From Escherichia coli (lineage in GTDB: Bacteria; Pseudomonadota; Gammaproteobacteria; Enterobacterales; Enterobacteriaceae): a stretch of 64,000 nucleotides of DNA. The DNA is taken from NCBI RefSeq assembly GCF_044324785.1, contig NZ_CP172127.1. One strand, 5' to 3'. Within the stretch, counting starts at the first letter, position 1, and each line of letters starts with the position of its first letter. The position numbers were made by a program, and so were the translations under genes. A model generated the notes under the pieces. The model searched no databases, had not been told where the DNA came from, and saw only the letters and a program-made list of their open reading frames with translations. Below, in pieces: positions 10,477-28,670 of this stretch.

Positions 10477-13233
10477 ATGACGGTCTCAACCGAAGTTGAC
10501 CACAACGAATACACCGGTAACGGCGCTACGACATCATTTCCGTATACCTTCCGTATTTTCAAAAAATCCGACCTGGTTGTTCAGGTGTCTGACCTGAACG
10601 GGAACGTAACAGAATTGGTTCTGGATACCGGTTATACGGTAACTGGGGCGGGCACTTATAGTGGCGGTTCTGTTGTTCTTCCGTCGCCGCTTGCTGCTGG
10701 ATGGCGAATTACGATAGATCGTGTGCTTGATGTAGTGCAGGAGACAGACCTTCGCAATCAGGGAAAATTTTTCCCCGAAGTGCATGAAGATGCTTTTGAC
10801 TACCTGACGATGCTGATCCAGCAATGTTTTGGGTGGTTCAGACGTGCATTGATGAAACCATCTTTGCTTGCAAAATATTACGATGCAAAGCAAAACAGAA
10901 TTTCTAACCTTGCAGATCCATCACTTGAGCAGGATGCTGTAAATAATCGCTCAATGCGTAATTATGTTGATGCTGCAATCGCCGGAGTTGTTGGTGGTTT
11001 TGGTTGGTTTATTCAGTATGGTTCTGGAGCAGTATACCGAACGTTCCAGGATAAGATGCGGGATAACGTTAACGCTCTTGATTTTGTTCCGTTTGAGCAA
11101 AGATATGCTGCATTAAATTTTGAAGTTGATGCGTCTGAATGGTTAATTAATGCGATAAATTCTGGTGCAAGTGTCGTTAGAATACCTGCAGGTAAATGGA
11201 TGATTTCTAAGAACATAGATGTGCCTCCTGGAGTGTCATTAATTGGTGATGGCATTGATTATTGGGATACATATAGACCAGCGCCTGAAAGATTATTAAA
11301 AAGTTGGAGTAAAGGAACCCATCTTGTATTTACTGGTGATGGAGAAAAAAACAAATATTTTTTTAACATCTCTAATGAAAGACCAGTTAAAATTGTTGAA
11401 GGGATATCTTGTAAGTTCACTGAGTTTACAAATGAAGATTCTGTAGGTGTTACTCCTGCTACACCAAAAGCCATGAGCGTAGCTGTTAGTATCAACAGGG
11501 CATCACAGTTACGCAACCTGAGAATAATGGTAAGTAAAAATGGTATTGAAGGATACAATAACCCTGATTCTTATTCATTGGGTGATGACTGGGATATAGG
11601 GTTGCATGTATACGATAGCTGTGATTCAGTTATTGATAACGTACAGATTGTCGGCTATTGGAGGGTAAAAGGACTACTACTGACAGAAAATGACGGGAGC
11701 CTTTCAATGAAGGGAAATCCTGAAAAAACGCACTTTAATAACGTTTATGTCCAGTCAGGGATCGCGATAAGGAATAGCCCTCAGATTGATCTTGTAAGTA
11801 ATACTGAAAGCTCAGTGACATTTAAACATAAAAAGTCGATGAGAATAACTTCAGTTAAACAGTTTAAAATTGCTGGCAGTGAATTAGTATATACGTATTC
11901 AGATGCATCATTTGATGGAACTAACATCACACTATCTGGTATTTCTCCTGAAATACAAGGTACAATAAGTGTAATCAGGTTTCCGTCAATTGGTAATAAT
12001 TTTAGCGGGACTGTTTTTGAGAATACAGTAGCCACTACTCTTGATCATACATCAGGTAAGCCATCAGAATACTTTGGCCTTCCTGCATCCTTTGCATTAG
12101 AGGTTGATGGTTTCCCTGTTCGTAATTTAAGGTTTGATAAATTCAAAGCTCAAACAACATTTGATAAAGGAAATTGCATTTTTGGTGATTGCCGTGATGT
12201 TAAAATAACATCATCTGAGTTTGAAAATGGAATTATGATTGCGTATAACCTGACCGAGACTCAGGGTTATACAGGAAATCTTAGATTTTTTGCTTCTGAT
12301 CTTCAGAGCAGCGTTAACACAAGTGAGTTTAAACCAAGAGACGCATTTGTAGACAATAGACAAATAAAAACGGAGTTTACTGATGGTTCGTTCATTATAA
12401 AGAACTGGAGGCCTACAGATACAAAAATACAATGGTCGTCTGGAGCAGATGCTATTGTTCTTAGAGAGTCACCTGACGAACAATCAAACGGAAATATTTA
12501 CGGGCATCACATTGATGGTAAAAGATGGATTAATGTTAGTGGATATAACAAAGATATAAATATTTCATCAAGAAACTTAAGCGTAAAAAACCATGGTGAT
12601 GACTCTGCAGTTATTAATATATTCGGCGACTCTGGAAATATTGCCATTAAAGGTAATTTTTCACCAATTATTGATAACAGCAAATCTCTTGGTGCACCAT
12701 CATTTAGATGGGCACAGGTTTATTCTGCGAACGGTTCGATAAACACATCAGATGGTAGAGAAAAAAGTGAACCGATTAGTACAAGTGAGCTCAGCTTGTA
12801 TATGTCTCGTGGTTATGAAGGTGATGCAATTCTGGATGCATGGGGAGATATCAGGATTGTAGCTTTTCGCTGGCTTGATGCCGTCAGGGAAAAGGGAGAT
12901 GGTGCCCGCTGGCATTTTGGTGTTATAGCACAACAAGTGAGAGACGCTTTCCTCGCGCATGGGATTGATGGAACCAGATTTGGCCTTCTCTGTTACGATG
13001 AATGGGATGATAAATACGCGCCAGTGATGGCGGTAAGGATGATCACTAAAGTTGTGGATGGCGTCGAAATTGAGATGGAAGAAGAATACGAAACAGAAGA
13101 GCGAACTCTGGTTTGCAAGGCTGGAAATAGGTGGGGTATCCGTACTGACCAGTGTTTATGGCTTGAGTCAGCTTATTTGCGTAGAAGAATCGAAAAAATA
13201 GAATCACGTCTTGCAATGCTTGAAAGTAGCTAA
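10477..13233 (+). CDS. Tailspike/tail fibre, 918 aa: T7 gp17-like N-terminal anchor, AT-rich central receptor-binding part, C-terminal intramolecular chaperone (peptidase S74-like) domain
   Basis: ORF track; GGAG RBS; N-terminal pattern resembling podovirus fibre anchors; C-terminal SDGREK motif region; GC drop in the middle. Confidence 0.8.
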   Translation: MTVSTEVDHNEYTGNGATTSFPYTFRIFKKSDLVVQVSDLNGNVTELVLDTGYTVTGAGTYSGGSVVLPSPLAAGWRITIDRVLDVVQETDLRNQGKFFPEVHEDAFDYLTMLIQQCFGWFRRALMKPSLLAKYYDAKQNRISNLADPSLEQDAVNNRSMRNYVDAAIAGVVGGFGWFIQYGSGAVYRTFQDKMRDNVNALDFVPFEQRYAALNFEVDASEWLINAINSGASVVRIPAGKWMISKNIDVPPGVSLIGDGIDYWDTYRPAPERLLKSWSKGTHLVFTGDGEKNKYFFNISNERPVKIVEGISCKFTEFTNEDSVGVTPATPKAMSVAVSINRASQLRNLRIMVSKNGIEGYNNPDSYSLGDDWDIGLHVYDSCDSVIDNVQIVGYWRVKGLLLTENDGSLSMKGNPEKTHFNNVYVQSGIAIRNSPQIDLVSNTESSVTFKHKKSMRITSVKQFKIAGSELVYTYSDASFDGTNITLSGISPEIQGTISVIRFPSIGNNFSGTVFENTVATTLDHTSGKPSEYFGLPASFALEVDGFPVRNLRFDKFKAQTTFDKGNCIFGDCRDVKITSSEFENGIMIAYNLTETQGYTGNLRFFASDLQSSVNTSEFKPRDAFVDNRQIKTEFTDGSFIIKNWRPTDTKIQWSSGADAIVLRESPDEQSNGNIYGHHIDGKRWINVSGYNKDINISSRNLSVKNHGDDSAVINIFGDSGNIAIKGNFSPIIDNSKSLGAPSFRWAQVYSANGSINTSDGREKSEPISTSELSLYMSRGYEGDAILDAWGDIRIVAFRWLDAVREKGDGARWHFGVIAQQVRDAFLAHGIDGTRFGLLCYDEWDDKYAPVMAVRMITKVVDGVEIEMEEEYETEERTLVCKAGNRWGIRTDQCLWLESAYLRRRIEKIESRLAMLESS

Positions 13234-13247
13234 ATATTGAGGATTAA

Positions 13248-13300
13248 TCTTAGTAGCCGACTTGCTTATTACGAAGTAAGTTCGGCTTCTTTCTTCTTTA
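13248..13300 (+). terminator. Candidate terminator after tailspike (imperfect hairpin plus T-rich tract)
   Basis: agccgacttgctt...aagttcggct followed by tctttcttcttt. Confidence 0.35.
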
Positions 13301-13462
13301 ATTGTGACTGAGAGGTACACTAGACCATTTTCTGAACGAAATTTTCATTGCCGTAGAAGGTAGAAATACAGCGTTTTGAGGTAACTATTATCCTTAAATG
13401 GTTTATTATGTGTGAATCTTCAATAGTAAGGAGATTGTTATGCGTAATAAACGGTGTTCATT

Positions 13463-13867
13463 ATGTCAGCCCATCTAACTACTGATTCTTTAAATCAATG
13501 GCTTAGTGTGAGCTCTCTTGCTGCAGTTATCGTAGGCGTTCCGCCAGAGGTGGCGCTCGGTGCTCTTGCTGGTGCGGTAATTTTTGTTACCTCTGCGGTA
13601 GAGTACCCAATTCATCGTCGCGTACTCTTATCGATGCTTAGCTTTCTCTGTGGACTTCTTTTCTACAAACCAGCAGCATCAATTCTTATCGGCATAGCCA
13701 GCCTGATCCCTACCATCACGCAGGACTCTTTTGAAAAAGGGATTGTTTTCTCTGCTGGCGCATTCGTGTCAGCAATTGTCGCTGTGCGTATTGGTATATG
13801 GCTCTACCACCGTTCAGACAATCCACGCGATTTAATTCCGGGGAGAAAAGACGATGGTAACGCATGA
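13463..13867 (+). CDS. Membrane protein with multiple TM segments (holin partner or second holin type)
   Basis: ORF 13454..13867; hydrophobic stretches; start GTG 13454 or ATG 13463. Confidence 0.45.
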   Translation: MSAHLTTDSLNQWLSVSSLAAVIVGVPPEVALGALAGAVIFVTSAVEYPIHRRVLLSMLSFLCGLLFYKPAASILIGIASLIPTITQDSFEKGIVFSAGAFVSAIVAVRIGIWLYHRSDNPRDLIPGRKDDGNA

Positions 13868-14162
13868 GTTTTTTTTGCTTATCACCAATGCAGTTATTTG
13901 TACTGGCATAGCAATTCGCGTTGTCACATTCCGGCGTAACGGCTCTCAACATCGAAGATGGGGAGGGTGGCTTGCTTATTTCCTTATTGTTGCTGCGGCC
14001 AGTATTCCTGTTCGTGTCGTCTATGCAATCTGGTTACGCACGCCAATGGCTGTGGATTTATCTGAGGTCATTATCAACGCTGTCATGCTTGCCGCGGTTA
14101 TTAAAACACGCGGTAACGTTGTTCAGATTTTCAAAATATCGAGGTCTAAACATGGAGATTAA
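13854..14162 (+). CDS. Holin, 102 aa, three predicted TM segments, basic C-terminus
   Basis: ORF track; position immediately upstream of and overlapping endolysin. Confidence 0.55.
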
Positions 14163-14781
14163 ACAATTCCAGCGAGCTGCTGGTATTAGCGAGGCGCTGG
14201 CCGCACGCTGGTTCTCGCATATAACTTCTGCGATGAAAGAGTTTGGTATCAGCAAAGCAGAAGATCAGGCAATGTTTATTGCTCAAGTCGGGCATGAGTC
14301 TGGGGGCTTCACCAGGTTGCAGGAGAATTTCAACTACAGTGTCAGCGGACTGGCTAACTTCGTTCGGGCTGGGCGTCTCACTCAGGGGCAGGCTAATGCA
14401 CTGGGTCGCCATGCTGGTGAACCACCATTGCCACTCGAGCGCCAGCGAGCGATTGCCAATCTGGTGTACAGCAAACGCATGGGGAACAATGCCCCCGGCG
14501 ATGGCTGGAATTACCGTGGCCGCGGACTTATCCAGATTACCGGTTTGAATAACTATCGTGATTGCGGAAACGGCCTGAAAGTGGACCTGCTGGAGAATCC
14601 TGAACTGTTGGCGCAGGACGAATACGCGGCTCGTAGCGCGGCGTGGTTCTTCTCCAGCAAAGGTTGCATGAAGTATACCGGCGATATTGCACGTGTAACT
14701 CTGATTATCAATGGTGGCAGGAATGGCATCGACGACCGGCGCGCGCGGTACGTCACTGCCAGTAAGGTGCTGGCGGTATGA
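14152..14781 (+). CDS. Endolysin, glycoside hydrolase family 19 type, about 209 aa
   Basis: Internal start ATG 14152 (GAGG 7 nt upstream) of ORF 13921..14781; [11 protein letters not shown] motif typical of GH19-type endolysins. Confidence 0.8.
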
Positions 14782-15260
14782 TCTGGGCATTCGTAAAAGC
14801 ATACTGGAAACAGTTGATTATCGTGGCAGTGCTTGCTGTTCTGGTCATATCAGGAGTTGTTGCCTGGAATGTACACGGTATCCGTCAGTACGACGCCGGG
14901 TATGCGCAGGCGAAAGAAGACTGCAAAGCCGAAGAAGAAAAAGTTCGTCAGTACTACGAACAGGAGAAAGTGACCAATGAACGTGAAGCTCAGCAGAGGA
15001 TCGACCAGGCGCGCAATGATGCTCTTGATGCTGCCGCTAGCGCTGGCCGGTTGCAGCAACAACTCTTTGCCATCCGTGAGCAGCTCAGGCAGTATAACGC
15101 CATTGTCGGCGCTGGGTCGTCAGCCGCAGACACCGGAGTTTTGCTTGCCGACGTGCTCAGCAAATCTCTCGAGAGAAACAGACAACTGGCAGAGTATGCT
15201 GACCGGGCAGCCGAAGCCGGAAGAGTCTGCGAAAAACAGTACGACACTTTGACCAGATAG
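14778..15260 (+). CDS. Rz-like i-spanin, 160 aa, N-terminal TM then coiled-coil
   Basis: ATGA overlap with endolysin stop; TM helix then charged helical region. Confidence 0.7.
15016..15252 (+). CDS. Rz1-like o-spanin lipoprotein embedded in the Rz gene in another frame
   Basis: ORF 14977..15252; lipobox LALAGC; Ser/Pro-rich mature region; ends 8 nt before Rz stop. Confidence 0.65.
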   Translation: MMLLMLPLALAGCSNNSLPSVSSSGSITPLSALGRQPQTPEFCLPTCSANLSRETDNWQSMLTGQPKPEESAKNSTTL

Positions 15261-15385: not shown

Positions 15386-15410
15386 TTTGACCCTGCACTA
15401 TGAATGAACA

Positions 15411-15440
15411 AAACCCTCTGTTACTACAGAGGGTTTTTTA
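15411..15440. terminator. Rho-independent terminator (native guaA terminator, possibly bidirectional)
   Basis: ccctctg-ttacta-cagaggg followed by ttttttat. Confidence 0.6.
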
Positions 15441-15477: not shown

Positions 15478-16017
15478 TTAATTAAACCAGCTGTCCGATT
15501 TGTTCTCTTCTGCTTTGCCCACGCTTTTCATCAGATCGCGACCGCCCTCAGTCATATTCCTGTTTGCGTCAGCTTCAGATTGCACCACATCGGTTTGCGC
15601 AGCTTTGTGCTTCAGTTCCTGATCGATAAATTCGTTTTCGCGCTTAACGCGGGCTTCTTCTTTCGCCAGCGCCAGTTTTTGTTTCTGAATCTCTAAGCTG
15701 CGTAGCTCATCTTCATAACTTTGATCGCGTTTTTTGTCCGCAGTGGCTTCGGCGTCCAGTTTATCCTGACGAGCTTTCTTATTTGCCGCTGCCGTTGCCG
15801 CTCTTTTATTAGCGGCGGCCTGGGCATTTGCGCGACGTTGCTTCTCTTGCTGGATTTCCCTGTTGCGCTCCGCGACCCATTCGTCATGCTGCCTTTGCTC
15901 TTCATTTTTACCTTGCTGTTCCGCTTCTGCGACAGCAGAGAGTTGATCCTGCAATGATGAGGCGATAGCCGGATAGCTTAAGGAGGCTAAGATGGCGCAA
16001 AGAAAAACTTTCTTCAT
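15478..16017 (-). CDS. yfgI: YfgI, 179 aa, signal peptide, charged repetitive protein
   Basis: ORF track; length and synteny with K-12. Confidence 0.8.
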   Translation of the reverse strand: MKKVFLCAILASLSYPAIASSLQDQLSAVAEAEQQGKNEEQRQHDEWVAERNREIQQEKQRRANAQAAANKRAATAAANKKARQDKLDAEATADKKRDQSYEDELRSLEIQKQKLALAKEEARVKRENEFIDQELKHKAAQTDVVQSEADANRNMTEGGRDLMKSVGKAEENKSDSWFN

Positions 16018-16032
16018 GACTCCTCCTGATTA

Positions 16033-16551
16033 TTAGCTCTTTTCAGGACATTTGGTATTTGGCTGAATACGCGTTTCGTTATACGTCGTGGTAATAACAA
16101 CGGCTAAACCTGTCGTAAACTGGCACTCTTTACCCACCTGGGTGGAGGTATACACTTTGGTGCCTTCCTTATACGTTAGAGAAACACCTTCCACTAAGGT
16201 TTTATCATTCACCATAGAACCTGCTGCCGCGCCTACAGCTCCGCCGCCAACTGCACCTGCCGTCGTTCCGGAATTGCTGCCAGACCCGACGTTGTGGCCA
16301 ATAACACCGCCAGCGACTGCACCAATAAGCGCGCCGAAGGCTTGTGCGTTTCGTTTATTTTGGGAGTTGTCTACGGCAACTTTTGCGGGAAGAATGGAAA
16401 TAATATTAACGGTTTTAGTTTCTTGTTTGGTATTCAGTTGATCGGTTTGATAAACATCGGCGGCATGATCATCAGCATTTGACTGGCATCCTGCCAGAGT
16501 GAATGACGCTAACATTGCCACAGGCAGAAGACATTTTTTAAATTTCATCAC
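16033..16551 (-). CDS. yfgH: YfgH outer-membrane lipoprotein, 172 aa, Gly-zipper region
   Basis: Lipobox LAGC; synteny. Confidence 0.8.
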   Translation of the reverse strand: MMKFKKCLLPVAMLASFTLAGCQSNADDHAADVYQTDQLNTKQETKTVNIISILPAKVAVDNSQNKRNAQAFGALIGAVAGGVIGHNVGSGSNSGTTAGAVGGGAVGAAAGSMVNDKTLVEGVSLTYKEGTKVYTSTQVGKECQFTTGLAVVITTTYNETRIQPNTKCPEKS

Positions 16552-24668: not shown

Positions 24669-25306
24669 TTACTCGTCGGCAGCGTAGCCCTGCTGCGGCA
24701 GACGTTGACCATCCAGCCACGCGGCGTTTTCGTGCATTTTCAGACGACCATCGGCAAACCAGCTAATCACCAGTGGATAAATAGCGTGTTCCTGGGTTTG
24801 CACGCGGGCGGTGATGTCATCTTCCGTATCACCAGCAAATACCGGGACTTTCGCCTGTAAAATAACCGGGCCACCGTCCAGTTCATCGGTGACGAAATGC
24901 ACTGATGTACCGTGCTCTTCATCGCCATTTTCCAGGGCCTGACGATGGGTGTGTAATCCGGGATATTTCGGCAGCAGAGAAGGGTGAATGTTCAGCAAAC
25001 GCCCGGCATAGTGGGAGACAAACGCCGGGCTGAGAATGCGCATAAAACCAGCCAGCACGACCACATCGGGTGCGTACATGTCGATTTCATGAATCAACTC
25101 CCGGTCATAGGCTTCACGACTGTCAAACGCGCTGGCGATGAGCGTATGCGTTGCAATACCCGCCTGGCGGGCGCGTTCAAGGCCGAACGCGTCGGCCTTA
25201 TTGCTGAAAACTGCCCGTACGGTGCCTTTAATTTTGTTGGTTTTGCAGGCGTCAATAATTGCCTGCAAATTACTTCCGTTGCCGGAAATAAGCACCACAA
25301 TATTCA

Positions 25307-26668: not shown

Positions 26669-27295
26669 ATGAAGATCGTGGAAGTCAAACACCCACTCGT
26701 CAAACACAAGCTGGGACTGATGCGTGAGCAAGATATCAGCACCAAGCGCTTTCGCGAACTCGCTTCCGAAGTGGGTAGCCTGCTGACTTACGAAGCGACC
26801 GCCGACCTCGAAACGGAAAAAGTAACTATCGAAGGCTGGAACGGCCCGGTAGAAATCGACCAGATCAAAGGTAAGAAAATTACCGTTGTGCCAATTCTGC
26901 GTGCGGGTCTTGGTATGATGGACGGTGTGCTGGAAAACGTTCCGAGCGCGCGCATCAGCGTTGTCGGTATGTACCGTAATGAAGAAACGCTGGAGCCGGT
27001 ACCGTACTTCCAGAAACTGGTTTCTAACATCGATGAGCGTATGGCGCTGATCGTTGACCCAATGCTGGCAACCGGTGGTTCCGTTATCGCGACCATCGAC
27101 CTGCTGAAAAAAGCGGGCTGCAGCAGCATCAAAGTTCTGGTGCTGGTCGCTGCGCCAGAAGGTATCGCTGCGCTGGAAAAAGCGCACCCGGACGTCGAAC
27201 TGTATACCGCATCGATTGACCAGGGACTGAACGAGCACGGATACATTATTCCGGGCCTCGGCGATGCCGGTGACAAAATCTTTGGTACGAAATAA
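26669..27295 (+). CDS. upp: Uracil phosphoribosyltransferase, 208 aa
   Basis: Internal ATG with AGGAGA RBS; N-terminus [16 protein letters not shown]. Confidence 0.9.
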
Positions 27296-27380: not shown

Positions 27381-28670
27381 ATGACGCGCCGTGCTATCGG
27401 GGTGAGTGAAAGACCGCCACTTTTACAGACAATCCCGCTTAGTTTGCAACATTTGTTCGCCATGTTTGGTGCAACCGTCCTGGTGCCCGTCTTATTTCAT
27501 ATTAACCCGGCGACTGTACTGTTATTTAACGGTATAGGAACGCTGCTATATCTCTTCATCTGTAAAGGGAAAATTCCGGCTTATCTTGGTTCCAGCTTTG
27601 CCTTTATTTCACCGGTATTGTTACTGTTGCCGTTGGGGTATGAAGTCGCGCTGGGCGGCTTTATTATGTGCGGCGTGCTGTTCTGCCTGGTTTCTTTTAT
27701 CGTGAAGAAAGCGGGGACCGGCTGGCTGGACGTGCTGTTTCCACCTGCGGCAATGGGCGCAATCGTTGCCGTCATCGGTCTGGAGCTGGCGGGCGTAGCT
27801 GCCGGTATGGCAGGTTTACTCCCGGCTGAAGGGCAAACTCCAGACTCCAAAACCATCATCATCTCCATTACCACCCTGGCAGTCACGGTTTTAGGTTCCG
27901 TGCTGTTTCGTGGTTTCCTGGCAATTATCCCGATTTTAATTGGCGTGCTGGTGGGCTACGCGCTCTCTTTCGCAATGGGAATTGTCGATACCACGCCGAT
28001 TATTAATGCTCACTGGTTTGCGCTGCCAACCCTCTATACGCCGCGCTTCGAGTGGTTTGCCATTCTGACTATTCTGCCAGCGGCGTTAGTGGTTATTGCC
28101 GAACACGTAGGGCACCTGGTGGTAACGGCTAATATCGTCAAAAAAGATCTGCTGCGCGATCCAGGTCTGCACCGTTCGATGTTTGCTAACGGCTTGTCGA
28201 CCGTGATCTCCGGCTTCTTTGGCTCCACGCCAAATACCACCTACGGGGAAAACATTGGCGTGATGGCGATCACCCGTGTTTACAGTACCTGGGTTATCGG
28301 CGGGGCAGCGATTTTCGCTATCCTGCTTTCCTGCGTCGGTAAACTGGCTGCTGCTATCCAGATGATCCCATTGCCGGTGATGGGCGGCGTTTCGCTGCTG
28401 CTTTATGGTGTCATCGGTGCTTCCGGTATTCGTGTTTTGATCGAATCGAAAGTGGATTACAACAAAGCACAGAACCTGATCCTGACTTCCGTGATTTTGA
28501 TCATCGGTGTCAGTGGCGCGAAGGTAAACATCGGCGCGGCGGAGCTGAAAGGTATGGCGCTGGCGACCATCGTCGGTATCGGCTTAAGTTTGATCTTCAA
28601 ACTGATTAGTGTGCTGCGCCCTGAAGAAGTGGTGCTGGACGCAGAAGACGCGGATATAACAGACAAATAA
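27381..28670 (+). CDS. uraA: Uracil permease, 429 aa
   Basis: ORF 27339..28670 with recalled start [15 protein letters not shown]. Confidence 0.9.

What the first reader, a model, noticed from the sequence alone, without database searches (positions are those of the whole stretch)
13426..13478. Strong ribosome-binding site feeds a 12-codon leader ORF overlapping the start of the pre-holin membrane gene
TAAGGAG at 13426-13432 is spaced 7 nt from ATG 13440, which opens only a 12-codon frame (MRNKRCSLCQPI) ending at 13478. The 137-aa membrane protein's candidate starts (GTG 13454, ATG 13463) lie inside this mini-ORF in another frame and have no SD of their own. This looks like translational coupling or a regulatory leader controlling the first gene of the lysis region.
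Basis: seen in the sequence. Interest (0 to 1): 0.3.

Follow-up and report, generated by a model that had tools for sequence, protein, structure and literature searches.

The report
Hidden start site in lysis-leader hairpin
The apparent strong ribosome-binding site and 12-codon mini-gene in front of this prophage's lysis genes sit inside one arm of a long, conserved RNA hairpin, so the hairpin, probably an RNase III processing or control element, is most likely the functional feature.

Summary
The sequence elements are real, with small errors. TAAGGAG is at 13427-13433, one base off, and lies 6 nt before ATG 13440. That ATG opens MRNKRCSLCQPI and stops at 13476-13478. The region heads the lysis cassette of an epsilon15/phiV10-like (Uetakevirus) prophage of E. 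coli.

It has 21 bp, -21.5 kcal/mol, z -2.7; in epsilon15 it is 24 bp, -33 kcal/mol, z -5.1.

- The hairpin is conserved with covariation: 88.8% of cells paired against 36-54% when the partners are slid.
- It depends on G·U pairs and is specific to the + strand, so it acts as RNA.
- ATG1 is unpaired with probability 0.01. Opening its site costs about 15.5 kcal/mol, against 3-6 for the true start, ATG 13463.
- ATG 13463 has its own weak, conserved SD, GGTG(G).
- The mini-peptide is not conserved, and ATG1 is absent from 5 of 24 leader lineages.

The epsilon15 GenBank record already labels this stretch a predicted RNase III site.

Best reading: a leader hairpin that is a probable RNase III substrate and hides a cryptic start site. 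Main rival: the hairpin gates a real mini-ORF. Interest is modest.

The parts
13401..13452 (+). Leader RNA hairpin of the lysis operon: 15 bp lower stem, 2-nt bulge on the 3' side, 6 bp upper stem, 8-nt loop
   Evidence: ViennaRNA MFE -21.5 kcal/mol, centroid -19.5, z -2.73, 1/200 shuffles as good. Homologous hairpin in epsilon15 is -33 kcal/mol, z -5.1. Covariance model R1 gives a single hit in the window, 13393-13465, 61.9 bits.
13401..13421 (+). 5' arm of the hairpin (GUUUAUUAUGUGUGAAUCUUC)
   Evidence: Pairs 13401-13415 with 13452-13438 and 13416-13421 with 13435-13430. I first misread the family consensus GGTTTATTGTGTATGATGAAC as a promoter.
13422..13429 (+). Apical loop (AAUAGUAA); holds the UAA of TAAGGAG
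13430..13452 (+). 3' arm of the hairpin, with UG bulge at 13436-13437; contains the GGAG core of SD1 and ATG1
   Evidence: In the 77-haplotype alignment the three ATG1 positions pair as U-A (76/77), A-U or G·U (76/77) and U·G, C-G or U-A (76/77).
13427..13433 (+). SD-like TAAGGAG ('SD1')
   Evidence: Read. Pairing to the 16S 3' end is -9.2 kcal/mol. G13430-G13433 are paired with C13421-C13418.
13440..13478 (+). Mini-ORF ATG...TAA, 12 codons (MRNKRCSLCQPI), overlapping the start of gene 1 out of frame
   Evidence: ATG1 unpaired probability is 0.01. The peptide is not conserved.
13453..13456 (+). Weak SD of gene 1 (GGTG; GGTGG in most relatives), starting 1 nt 3' of the stem base
   Evidence: -3.0 kcal/mol here and -5.8 in most relatives. 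Nearly invariant in alignment A1. Annotated as the RBS in phage Tyrion.
13463..13867 (+). Gene 1 of the lysis cassette: 134-aa membrane protein of the Phage_holin_8 family
   Evidence: Pfam PF16931, E 4.6e-12; PHROG 198 holin. PGAP start in the identical E57 record. ATG invariant in alignment A1.
13854..14162 (+). Gene 2: holin (Phage_holin_3_7); its ATG lies 11 nt before the stop codon of gene 1
   Evidence: Pfam PF05449, E 2.2e-27. Own SD -8.1 kcal/mol..
14152..14781 (+). GH19 endolysin; start overlaps the end of gene 2
   Evidence: Pfam PF00182; PGAP coordinates
14778..15260 (+). Rz-like i-spanin (DUF2514), ATGA overlap with the endolysin; embedded Rz1-like lipoprotein ORF at 14977-15252
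   Evidence: Pfam PF10721, E 2.2e-42. ORF list. phiV10 and epsilon15 annotation of the homologues.

Best explanation
The SD-like TAAGGAG and ATG 13440 are the 3' arm of a conserved RNA hairpin of about 21-24 bp (13401-13452). It lies in the leader of the lysis-operon mRNA of epsilon15-like (Uetakevirus) phages.

Shown:
- The hairpin exists, is conserved with compensatory changes, relies on G·U pairs, and is specific to the + strand.
- It buries ATG1 and the core of SD1.
- It ends 1 nt before the weak but conserved SD (GGTG) of the real first gene, which starts at ATG 13463 and stays comparatively accessible.

Inferred: the hairpin, not the mini-ORF, is the selected element. A stem held at two helical turns is what E. 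coli RNase III needs. I therefore take it to be an RNase III processing or control site, as the epsilon15 depositors predicted.
- It would either mark the 5' end of the lysis transcript or cut the lysis mRNA away from upstream late RNA.
- It thereby sets the stability and translatability of the lysis message.
- Meanwhile it keeps the cryptic upstream start closed, so gene 1 is initiated on its own, at a low rate, from ATG 13463.

On this view the 12-codon ORF is little translated from the folded RNA and has no function as a peptide.
For: Structure:
- Window fold -21.5 kcal/mol, z -2.73.
- epsilon15 -33 kcal/mol, z -5.12.
- 85 haplotypes: median -26 kcal/mol, median z -4.7. ATG1 is fully paired in 74 of the 79 that have it.

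Covariation on 77 distinct sequences:
- 88.8% of cells paired, against 36-54% with partners slid.
- 47 double-change cells against 20.8 ± 4.1 in shuffles (0/500).
- Covariation score 0.209 against 0.06-0.08.
- The commonest pair is G·U at five positions.

Strand and RNA specificity:
- + strand mean -22.8 against - strand -10.2 kcal/mol; + is more stable in 76/77.
- A Watson-Crick-only inverted-repeat search finds nothing there.
- The covariance model scores 44-98 bits on + and at most 34 on -.

Sequestration:
- P(unpaired) of ATG1 is 0.01.
- Opening SD1..ATG1 costs about 15.5 kcal/mol (25 in epsilon15), against 3-6 for SD2..ATG2.

The hairpin persists without the mini-ORF start:
- ZX5 keeps the stem base, has no SD1 or ATG1, and has a strong AGGAG before the gene.
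- L056 has ATA.

Peptide not conserved: frame offsets of 22, 23 and 25 nt, and 1-14 codons.

Prior annotation: NC_004775.2 carries 'protein_bind RNaseIII, mRNA processing' at 24755-24817, exactly this leader.

Distribution: model hits in 69 of 80 protein-defined viral loci and in epsilon15, SPN1S, PAT1, PAS61, ZX5, BUCT554 and Klebsiella phage ST512-KPC3phi13.3.
Against: - No experiment shows RNase III cleavage. The epsilon15 label is an in-silico prediction.
- The transcription start is unknown, so whether the hairpin is 5'-terminal or internal is inference.
- An SD-like run at ideal spacing from an ATG inside one arm is not very likely by chance. Only 17 of 2217 ATGs in the window have so strong an SD.
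- A and T of ATG1 are among the very few invariant leader positions.
- SD1 plus ATG1 persist in lineages whose hairpin has weakened (L012, L016, L111, L057).
- Two lineages without SD1/ATG1 have a stronger SD before the gene (ZX5 AGGAG; L176 AAAGGTGG, -7.8 kcal/mol). This would fit a positive contribution of the mini-ORF elsewhere.
- The hairpin is itself dispensable: it is degenerate or absent in about a third of leader lineages, including the common L060 type (11 of 80 loci).
Confidence: 0.5

Rival explanations
1. Hairpin-gated mini-ORF. This resembles the lambda S 'sdi' stem or hok/mok, but the upstream start is out of frame.

SD1 and ATG1 would form a real ribosome-binding site that the stem keeps mostly closed. 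When the stem is open, ribosomes load at 13440. That could happen briefly during transcription, after RNase III cleavage, or on transcripts that start inside the 5' arm.

The ribosomes then run over ATG 13463 and terminate at 13476-13478. They either reinitiate backwards at 13463 with the help of GGTG (coupling) or block it (occlusion). Stem stability would then set how much of the first holin-family protein is made, and so the lysis timing.
For: - Near-ideal SD1-ATG1 geometry is kept in 79 of 86 haplotypes. It is also kept in lineages with weak hairpins.
- The start codons are 22-25 nt apart, so two initiating ribosomes cannot sit on both. Pairs of start codons 3-25 nt apart were shown to act by coupling or by occlusion in another bacterium (PMC13285730).
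- Mini-ORF stops fall between -17 and +20 of the gene start. That is within the range of bidirectional post-termination scanning, and an SD raises reinitiation (PMC2268962).
- SD2 is stronger in two lineages that lack SD1/ATG1.
- The rest of the cassette is a chain of overlapping cistrons.
- Without the 5' arm, the cost of opening SD1..ATG1 falls from about 15.5 to 6.7 kcal/mol.
Against: - At equilibrium the site is closed: P(unpaired) 0.01, and net energy unfavourable by 6 kcal/mol here and 13 in epsilon15.
- ATG1 changed to ATA twice independently and to TTG once, without loss of the gene.
- The whole lower 3' arm is as conserved as ATG1, so pairing alone can explain the conservation.
- All SD-like variants look homologous by descent. 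None arose independently.
Confidence: 0.28
2. An open, strong RBS constitutively translates the 12-codon leader, and the membrane gene is expressed mainly by translational coupling to it.
For: - SD1 is much stronger than SD2 (-9.2 against -3.0 kcal/mol).
- The architecture resembles synthetic bicistronic designs and two-cistron couplers, in which a short leader cistron carries the SD of the second gene (10.1101/2023.02.09.527918 and PMC5995908, listed; abstracts only).
- The stop lies 13 nt after the gene start.
Against: - SD1 core and ATG1 are base-paired in a conserved stem.
- The gene has its own conserved SD.
- Natural variants lack ATG1.
- There is no structure around ATG 13463 that a leader-translating ribosome would need to unmask: the opening cost is 3-6 kcal/mol.
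Confidence: 0.07
3. DNA-level element. The conserved block is a promoter or operator region, for example for the leftward serotype-conversion genes of relatives, or a promoter for the lysis genes inside the 5' arm. The RNA hairpin and the mini-ORF would then be incidental.
For: - A sigma-70-like site on the - strand, TTCACA-18-GATAAT at 13416 to 13387, matches 10 of 12 positions.
- In Tyrion, phiV10, epsilon15 and SPN1S the next gene upstream is a - strand O-antigen modification gene.
- The 5' arm contains a -10-like TATGAT or TATAAT in most lineages.
Against: - Covariation between the two arms, and the commonest pair being G·U at five positions, cannot be explained by a DNA site.
- The structure is strongly strand-asymmetric.
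- It is not a Watson-Crick palindrome.
- A promoter could coexist with the hairpin, but it does not account for conservation of the 3' arm.
Confidence: 0.08
4. Chance or vestige. The mini-ORF is meaningless, and the leader is conserved only because these prophages are closely related.
For: - Strong-SD short ORFs occur about 8 times per window by chance.
- Many loci are near-identical.
Against: - The leader is retained next to a gene-1 protein only 42% identical (L089), while flanking and spacer sequence varies freely.
- Pairing is kept through compensatory changes.
Confidence: 0.05

Closest known systems
Predicted RNase III site upstream of gp23 in Salmonella phage epsilon15 (GenBank NC_004775.2, feature 24755-24817)
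   Same: It is the homologous sequence. The window hairpin matches the model built on this family (61.9 bits), and epsilon15 scores 96.6 bits. Position is the same, immediately before the Phage_holin_8 gene.
   Different: The epsilon15 feature is an unexplained in-silico label. Neither the SD-like/ATG content of the 3' arm, nor the covariation, nor the spread across the genus is noted in the record. The genome paper could not be read here. The window variant is weaker: 21 bp with six G·U pairs and a 2-nt bulge, against 24 bp.
RNase III-processed leader hairpins such as the lambda N leader, T7 intercistronic sites and the E. coli adhE, pnp and rnc leaders (my own knowledge)
   Same: A long stem of about two helical turns in an enterobacterial or phage mRNA leader, next to a ribosome-binding site. 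Cleavage there changes translation or stability.
   Different: Cleavage here is untested. The sign of the effect is unknown. Most classical T7 sites have an internal loop and a single cut, whereas most family members here are nearly perfect duplexes.
Lambda S gene 'sdi' stem-loop and dual-start motif (my own knowledge: Blasi et al. 1989)
   Same: A stem-loop directly upstream of the first holin-family gene hides the SD of an upstream start, so ribosomes are partitioned between two close start codons at the head of a lysis cassette.
   Different: In lambda the two starts are in frame and 2 codons apart, giving holin and antiholin. Here the upstream start is 23 nt away and out of frame, gives a non-conserved 12-aa peptide, and the stem is far longer.
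uORF/uRBS control of a closely spaced main RBS: coupling or ribosomal occlusion (Dietz et al. 2026, PMC13285730); termination-reinitiation (Yoo and RajBhandary 2008, PMC2268962)
   Same: Upstream SD plus start lies 22-25 nt from the main start, the short ORF overlaps the main start, and an SD for the main gene lies inside the uORF.
   Different: Those uRBSs were ribosome-occupied. Here the upstream site is buried in a stem of -20 to -36 kcal/mol, and its use is unproven.
hok/mok and other type I toxin mRNAs (my own knowledge; general principle in the abstract of PMC11228461)
   Same: A lethal small membrane protein gene preceded by an overlapping reading frame whose SD is sequestered by RNA structure until processing.
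   Different: No antisense RNA or processing is shown here. Gene 1 has its own SD. Downstream lysis genes have independent SDs.

Membership tests
Translationally coupled leader ORF (termination-reinitiation) | Upstream RBS is accessible and used by ribosomes | tested here: not met
   In silico only. ATG1 P(unpaired) is 0.01. The opening cost is about 15.5 kcal/mol, against -9.2 gained from SD pairing. Ribosome occupancy itself is not testable here.
Translationally coupled leader ORF (termination-reinitiation) | Stop codon of the leader close to or overlapping the downstream start | tested here: met
   TAA 13476-13478 begins 13 nt after the A of ATG 13463. In relatives the stop begins between -17 and +20.
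Translationally coupled leader ORF (termination-reinitiation) | Downstream gene depends on leader translation | not testable with these tools
   Natural variants without ATG1 still carry the gene. This argues against strict dependence but is not a test.
RNase III processing site | Double-stranded stem of about 20 bp or more (two helical turns) on the transcribed strand | tested here: met
   21 bp in the window and 24 bp in epsilon15. Long stems appear in the folds of most haplotypes. The structure is + strand specific.
RNase III processing site | Cleavage by RNase III in vivo or in vitro | not testable with these tools
   Only the depositors' in-silico label in NC_004775.2 exists.
RNase III processing site | Absence of antideterminant base pairs in the proximal and distal boxes | not tested
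   The cleavage position is unknown, so the boxes cannot be placed.
Lambda-type dual-start holin with sdi structure | Stem-loop just upstream of the holin start that hides the SD of the upstream start | tested here: met
   The SD1 core is paired in the apical stem, and the stem ends 10 nt before ATG 13463.
Lambda-type dual-start holin with sdi structure | Two in-frame starts giving holin and antiholin isoforms | tested here: not met
   ATG 13440 is out of frame (offset 23 nt) and stops after 12 codons. An in-frame ATG at -12 exists only in the haplotypes with AAATGGTGG, and not in the window.
5'-terminal stabilising stem-loop (ompA type) | Hairpin begins within a few nt of the mRNA 5' end | not testable with these tools
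   -10-like hexamers end 4-10 nt before the first G of the stem. In the window this is TATTAT 13386-13391, and in one lineage TTGACA-17-AACCAT. No transcription-start data were available.
Intrinsic terminator or attenuator | G+C-rich stem followed by a U run | tested here: not met
   The stem is A+U-rich (GC 0.30) and is followed by GGUGUUCAUUAUG. It is not called by the terminator scan.
Any Rfam family | Match to a curated covariance model | tested here: not met
   Best hits have E 2.6-9.1, far below the gathering scores, and none lies on the hairpin.
Phage_holin_8 (PF16931), for gene 1 | Profile match above the curated cut-off | tested here: met
   46.6 bits against a cut-off of 26.4; PHROG 198 holin, E 2e-40.

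The most novel reading that the evidence does not exclude
The hairpin is a timing gate on a decoy or coupler start site. RNase III cleavage, or transcripts that lack the 5' arm, would expose SD1 and ATG 13440. The flux of ribosomes through the 12-codon frame would then switch translation of the first holin-family gene on by reinitiation, or off by occlusion.

This would be an out-of-frame counterpart of the lambda S sdi/dual-start lysis clock, combined with processing-dependent activation as in type I toxins.
Probability: 0.2. Interest if true: 0.6.

Novelty: new member of a known kind. Interest (0 to 1): 0.33.

Why it matters
Lysis timing decides phage burst size, and in lambda it is set partly by an RNA stem that partitions ribosomes between two starts of the holin gene. 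The epsilon15/phiV10 group includes SPN1S and prophages in about 9% of complete E. coli genomes (513 of 5426). No equivalent control has been described for this group in the papers I could search.

A conserved, covarying stem of about two helical turns in front of its lysis cassette is a concrete, testable candidate for such control. It would also link host RNase III to lysis.

There is a practical lesson for annotation. A textbook SD plus ATG can be an arm of a hairpin, and a fold that leaves out one arm gives a false negative.

Tried and rejected
1. My first folds started at 13418 or at the equivalent alignment column, because I had taken the upstream conserved block for a promoter. They showed no structure (z -0.38; alifold about -1 kcal/mol). 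This was a false negative caused by cutting off the 5' arm. It was corrected after the epsilon15 record pointed to an RNase III site.
2. I considered the conserved GGTTTATTGTGTATGAT block as a + strand sigma-70 promoter. The scan calls no + strand promoter there and the -35 is weak and variable. Covariation with the 3' arm explains the conservation better. A promoter inside the arm is not excluded.
3. Functional leader peptide or arrest peptide: rejected. The reading frame over the conserved AAACGGTGG differs between lineages (offset 22 against 23 nt), and the C-terminal residues vary.
4. Programmed frameshift from the mini-ORF into gene 1: rejected. There is no conserved slippery site, and different lineages would need different shifts.
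5. GTG 13454 as the gene start: rejected. It is part of the GGTG(G) motif, has no SD of its own (+0.6 kcal/mol), and the next 5 nt are hypervariable.
6. Compensation test, asking whether SD2 is stronger where ATG1 is lost. It is in ZX5 and L176 but not in L011, L056 or L060, so the result is inconclusive.
7. Excess constraint on ATG1 beyond pairing. Counted per cell it looks constrained. Counted as events, ATG to ATA arose twice, about as often as changes in the partner column, so the result is inconclusive.
8. DNA palindrome or operator: no Watson-Crick inverted repeat is found.
9. Rfam: no family matches.
10. Deep conservation. Distant gene-1 homologues (38-39% identity) in other contexts have ordinary SDs and no such leader. 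The element is therefore confined to the Uetakevirus leader module.
11. The epsilon15 genome paper (PMC2698709) is not held, so the depositors' basis for the label could not be read.
Full report
**Context**

Window 13.2-15.3 kb is the lysis cassette at the end of an epsilon15/phiV10-like (genus Uetakevirus) prophage of E. coli.
- The stretch 13240-13900 is 100% identical to E. coli E57 (NZ_CP121153). Related sequence occurs in 513 of 5426 complete E. coli genomes and in 22 phage records.
- The gene order is as follows:
  - tail fibre gene, 10477-13233;
  - terminator-like hairpin, 13255-13287, followed by a U run;
  - a 134-aa Phage_holin_8 membrane protein, 13463-13867;
  - a Phage_holin_3_7 holin, 13854-14162;
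  - a GH19 endolysin, 14152-14781;
  - Rz/Rz1 spanins, 14778-15260.

**The observation**

Reading the sequence confirms ATG 13440, the 12-codon frame MRNKRCSLCQPI and TAA 13476-13478. It also confirms GTG 13454 and ATG 13463 inside that frame, in another frame.

Several details need correcting.
- TAAGGAG is at 13427-13433, one base to the right of the coordinates given. The spacer is 6 nt.
- The claim that the gene's starts have no SD is not accurate. GGTG at 13453-13456 (GGTGG in most relatives) lies 6 nt before ATG 13463. It is nearly invariant in relatives and was annotated as the RBS in phage Tyrion. It is weak: -3.0 kcal/mol here, against -9.2 for TAAGGAG.
- ATG 13463 is the likely start. 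PGAP uses it, almost all listed homologues are 133-134 aa, and it is invariant in alignment A1, while the 5 nt before it are hypervariable.
- As a single occurrence the motif is not remarkable. Of 2217 ATGs in the window, 17 have an SD at least as strong, and 8 of these open ORFs under 30 codons.

**Comparative picture**

I collected related loci in three ways:
- by protein (80 viral contigs);
- by a DNA word inside the gene that is independent of the leader;
- from named phages.

Results:
- Among 86 distinct haplotypes, 79 carry an SD-like run (-5 to -12.7 kcal/mol) and an ATG 22-25 nt before the gene start.
- Grouped at 85% leader identity there are 24 lineages, and 19 keep the ATG.
- The five exceptions are ATA in two lineages (L011, L056), TTG in the common L060 type, a leader without SD1 or ATG1 (L176) and a deleted leader (L146). 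Phage ZX5 also lacks both.
- The peptide is not conserved. The offset to the gene start is 22, 23 or 25 nt, so the conserved block AAACGGTGG is read in different frames.
- The ORF is 1 codon (ATG-TGA, L057), 3, 6 (phiV10), 11, 12 or 14 codons long, and its stop begins between -17 and +20 of the gene start.
- A gene-1 homologue only 42% identical (L089) carries the same leader. Homologues at 38-39% identity in other phage contexts have ordinary SDs and no such leader.

The leader is therefore a conserved module of this phage group.

**The turn**

I had read the conserved block upstream (GGTTTATTGTGTATGATGAAC) as a promoter, and I folded only the sequence 3' of it. Those folds showed no structure.

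The epsilon15 GenBank record, however, labels 24755-24817, exactly this leader, as 'RNaseIII, mRNA processing'. Folding with the upstream block included gives a long hairpin.
- In epsilon15 it has 24 bp, -33 kcal/mol, z -5.1.
- In the window it spans 13401-13452, with a 15 bp lower stem, a UG bulge and a 6 bp upper stem. It has an 8-nt loop and folds at -21.5 kcal/mol, z -2.7, with 1 of 200 shuffles as good.
- The supposed promoter is the 5' arm. The 3' arm carries the GGAG core of the SD-like run, paired with CUUC 13418-13421.
- The 3' arm also carries ATG 13440-13442, paired A-U, U·G and G·U with 13413-13411.

**Is the hairpin real and selected?**

- Across 85 haplotypes the median energy is -26 kcal/mol and the median z is -4.7. 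ATG1 is fully paired in 74 of the 79 that have it.
- On a 77-sequence alignment, 88.8% of cells form standard pairs, against 36-54% when the 3' partners are slid by 1-3 columns.
- The same test gives 47 cells with changes on both sides, against 20.8 ± 4.1 in shuffles (0 of 500). The covariation score is 0.209 against 0.06-0.08.
- The apical stem differs between lineages but stays complementary. Examples are CUCACC/GGGGG, CUUC/GGAG, UUCAC/GUGAG and CCCCU/AGGGG.
- The commonest pair is G·U at five positions.
- The + strand folds on average 12.6 kcal/mol better than the - strand, and is the more stable in 76 of 77.
- A Watson-Crick-only inverted-repeat search sees nothing.
- A covariance model scores 44-98 bits on + and at most 34 on -.

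This is therefore an RNA structure on the lysis-gene strand, not a DNA palindrome.
- The model hits 69 of 80 protein-defined viral loci.
- It also hits epsilon15, SPN1S, PAT1, PAS61, ZX5, BUCT554 and a Klebsiella prophage.
- It finds one site in the window.
- No Rfam family matches.

**Consequences for the mini-ORF**

- In the folded leader ATG1 is unpaired with probability 0.01.
- Opening SD1 through ATG1 costs about 15.5 kcal/mol in the window and 25 in epsilon15. This is more than the -9 to -12 kcal/mol gained from SD pairing.
- Opening SD2 through ATG 13463 costs 3-6 kcal/mol.
- The upstream site is thus not a strong RBS at equilibrium, and the true start is the more accessible of the two.
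- Conservation of ATG1 is matched by the rest of the lower 3' arm, so pairing can explain it.
- The hairpin survives without the start: ZX5 keeps the stem base and has a strong AGGAG before the gene, and L056 has ATA.

**Most likely mechanism (confidence about 0.5)**

Shown:
- the hairpin, its conservation and its strand specificity;
- the burial of SD1 and ATG1;
- the adjacent weak SD of gene 1.

Inferred:
- The stem is the selected element. Its maintained length of two helical turns points to recognition by RNase III, as the epsilon15 depositors predicted.
- The hairpin may be 5'-terminal. -10-like hexamers end 4-10 nt before the stem, for example TATTAT 13386-13391 in the window and TTGACA-17-AACCAT in one lineage.
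- Alternatively it may be internal to late RNA that reads through the tail-fibre terminator.
- In either case it would set the processing, stability and translatability of the lysis message. It would also keep the cryptic start closed, so gene 1 starts on its own at a low rate.

**Rivals**

- *Hairpin-gated mini-ORF (0.28).* Points that keep it alive:
  - the near-ideal SD-ATG geometry;
  - its persistence in lineages with weak hairpins (L012, L016, L111, L057);
  - the two invariant bases of ATG1;
  - the stronger SD2 in two lineages that lack SD1/ATG1;
  - start codons too close for two ribosomes, a layout shown elsewhere to act by coupling or occlusion (PMC13285730), with reinitiation helped by an SD (PMC2268962).
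  - Without the 5' arm the opening cost falls to 6.7 kcal/mol.
- *DNA-level promoter or operator (0.08).* A promoter-like site on the - strand does overlap the 5' arm (13416 to 13387, 10 of 12 positions). It probably serves the leftward O-antigen conversion genes present in relatives. It cannot explain covariation of the arms through G·U pairs.
- *Pure chance or vestige (0.05).* This does not fit the compensatory changes or the retention of the leader next to a divergent gene.

**Comparison with known systems**

- The element is homologous to the unexplained 'RNaseIII' feature of epsilon15.
- It most resembles RNase III-processed leader hairpins (lambda N leader, T7 sites, adhE) and the lambda S sdi stem. 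These comparisons rest on my own knowledge.
- It is not a dual-start holin, because the starts are out of frame.
- It is not a terminator, because there is no U run.
- It is not a demonstrated coupling leader.

**Verdict**

- The feature is real and conserved, but it is a leader hairpin that contains the motif, not an open RBS feeding a leader peptide.
- Novelty: new member of a known kind. It had already been flagged in one GenBank record, but as far as I could find its conservation, covariation and hidden start site have not been described.
- Interest is modest, 0.33.

Noticed in passing
window 13387-13416 (- strand): There is a sigma-70-like promoter on the opposite strand (TTCACA-18-GATAAT, 10 of 12), overlapping the 5' arm of the hairpin. 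In Tyrion, phiV10, epsilon15 and SPN1S the neighbouring upstream gene is a - strand O-antigen modification gene. In the window there is no - strand gene to serve, because the tail-fibre gene on the + strand lies directly upstream. The site may therefore be a vestige.
   Followed up: partly
window 13255-13299: A strong terminator-like hairpin (GCCGACUUGCUU...AAGUAAGUUCGGC) followed by UUCUUUCUUCUUU lies just after the tail-fibre gene (-21.4 kcal/mol, z -4.3). The simple terminator scan missed it. The lysis cassette therefore needs its own promoter in 13290-13400, or antitermination.
   Followed up: partly
window 13386-13391; related loci such as L019, L043: -10-like hexamers end 4-10 nt before the first G of the hairpin. 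In the window this is TATTAT. One lineage has a perfect TTGACA placed 17 nt before AACCAT. This suggests that lysis transcripts may begin at the foot of the hairpin. No transcription-start data were available.
   Followed up: partly
window 13854-13867, 14152-14162, 14778-14781: All cassette junctions overlap. The ATG of gene 2 lies 11 nt before the stop codon of gene 1, the endolysin ATG lies 8 nt before the stop codon of gene 2, and endolysin and Rz share ATGA. The Rz1 lipoprotein ORF (14977-15252) is embedded in Rz.
   Followed up: no
related loci, e.g. L023, L038, L058, L010 (position -12 from the gene start): A C/T polymorphism in AAAYGGTGG creates an in-frame ATG four codons before the usual start in many haplotypes. 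This probably explains the 138-aa versions of the protein in databases. The window has C, so no such ATG. The added residues carry no conserved charge, so it is probably not a lambda-like dual start.
   Followed up: partly
L084 1430-1503: A 38%-identical Phage_holin_8 homologue from another phage has a different leader hairpin (GCUGUAGC...GCUACAGC) ending directly at its ATG. An ATG without an SD lies at the start of the loop. Leader hairpins in front of this gene family may be recurrent.
   Followed up: no
L218 (epsilon15 26753-26789, 26874-26912, 28297-28335): The epsilon15 record labels three further 'RNaseIII' hairpins around attP and after int, downstream of the lysis cassette on the same strand. 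This recalls lambda sib retroregulation. The record annotates no promoters at all.
   Followed up: no
L060-L063, L065-L067, L070-L072, L074 (about 1425-1500): A common prophage variant (11 of 80 loci) has a degenerate leader. It has no stable hairpin, TTG in place of ATG1 and only a weak ACGGG before the gene. The whole element is therefore dispensable in some genetic backgrounds.
   Followed up: partly
window 15410-15437 and 15478-16551: A terminator-like hairpin lies just after the spanin genes, and is followed by - strand ORFs, one with a lipoprotein-like N terminus. By analogy with epsilon15, where attP follows the spanin genes, this may mark the prophage end. The boundary was not tested.
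   Followed up: no
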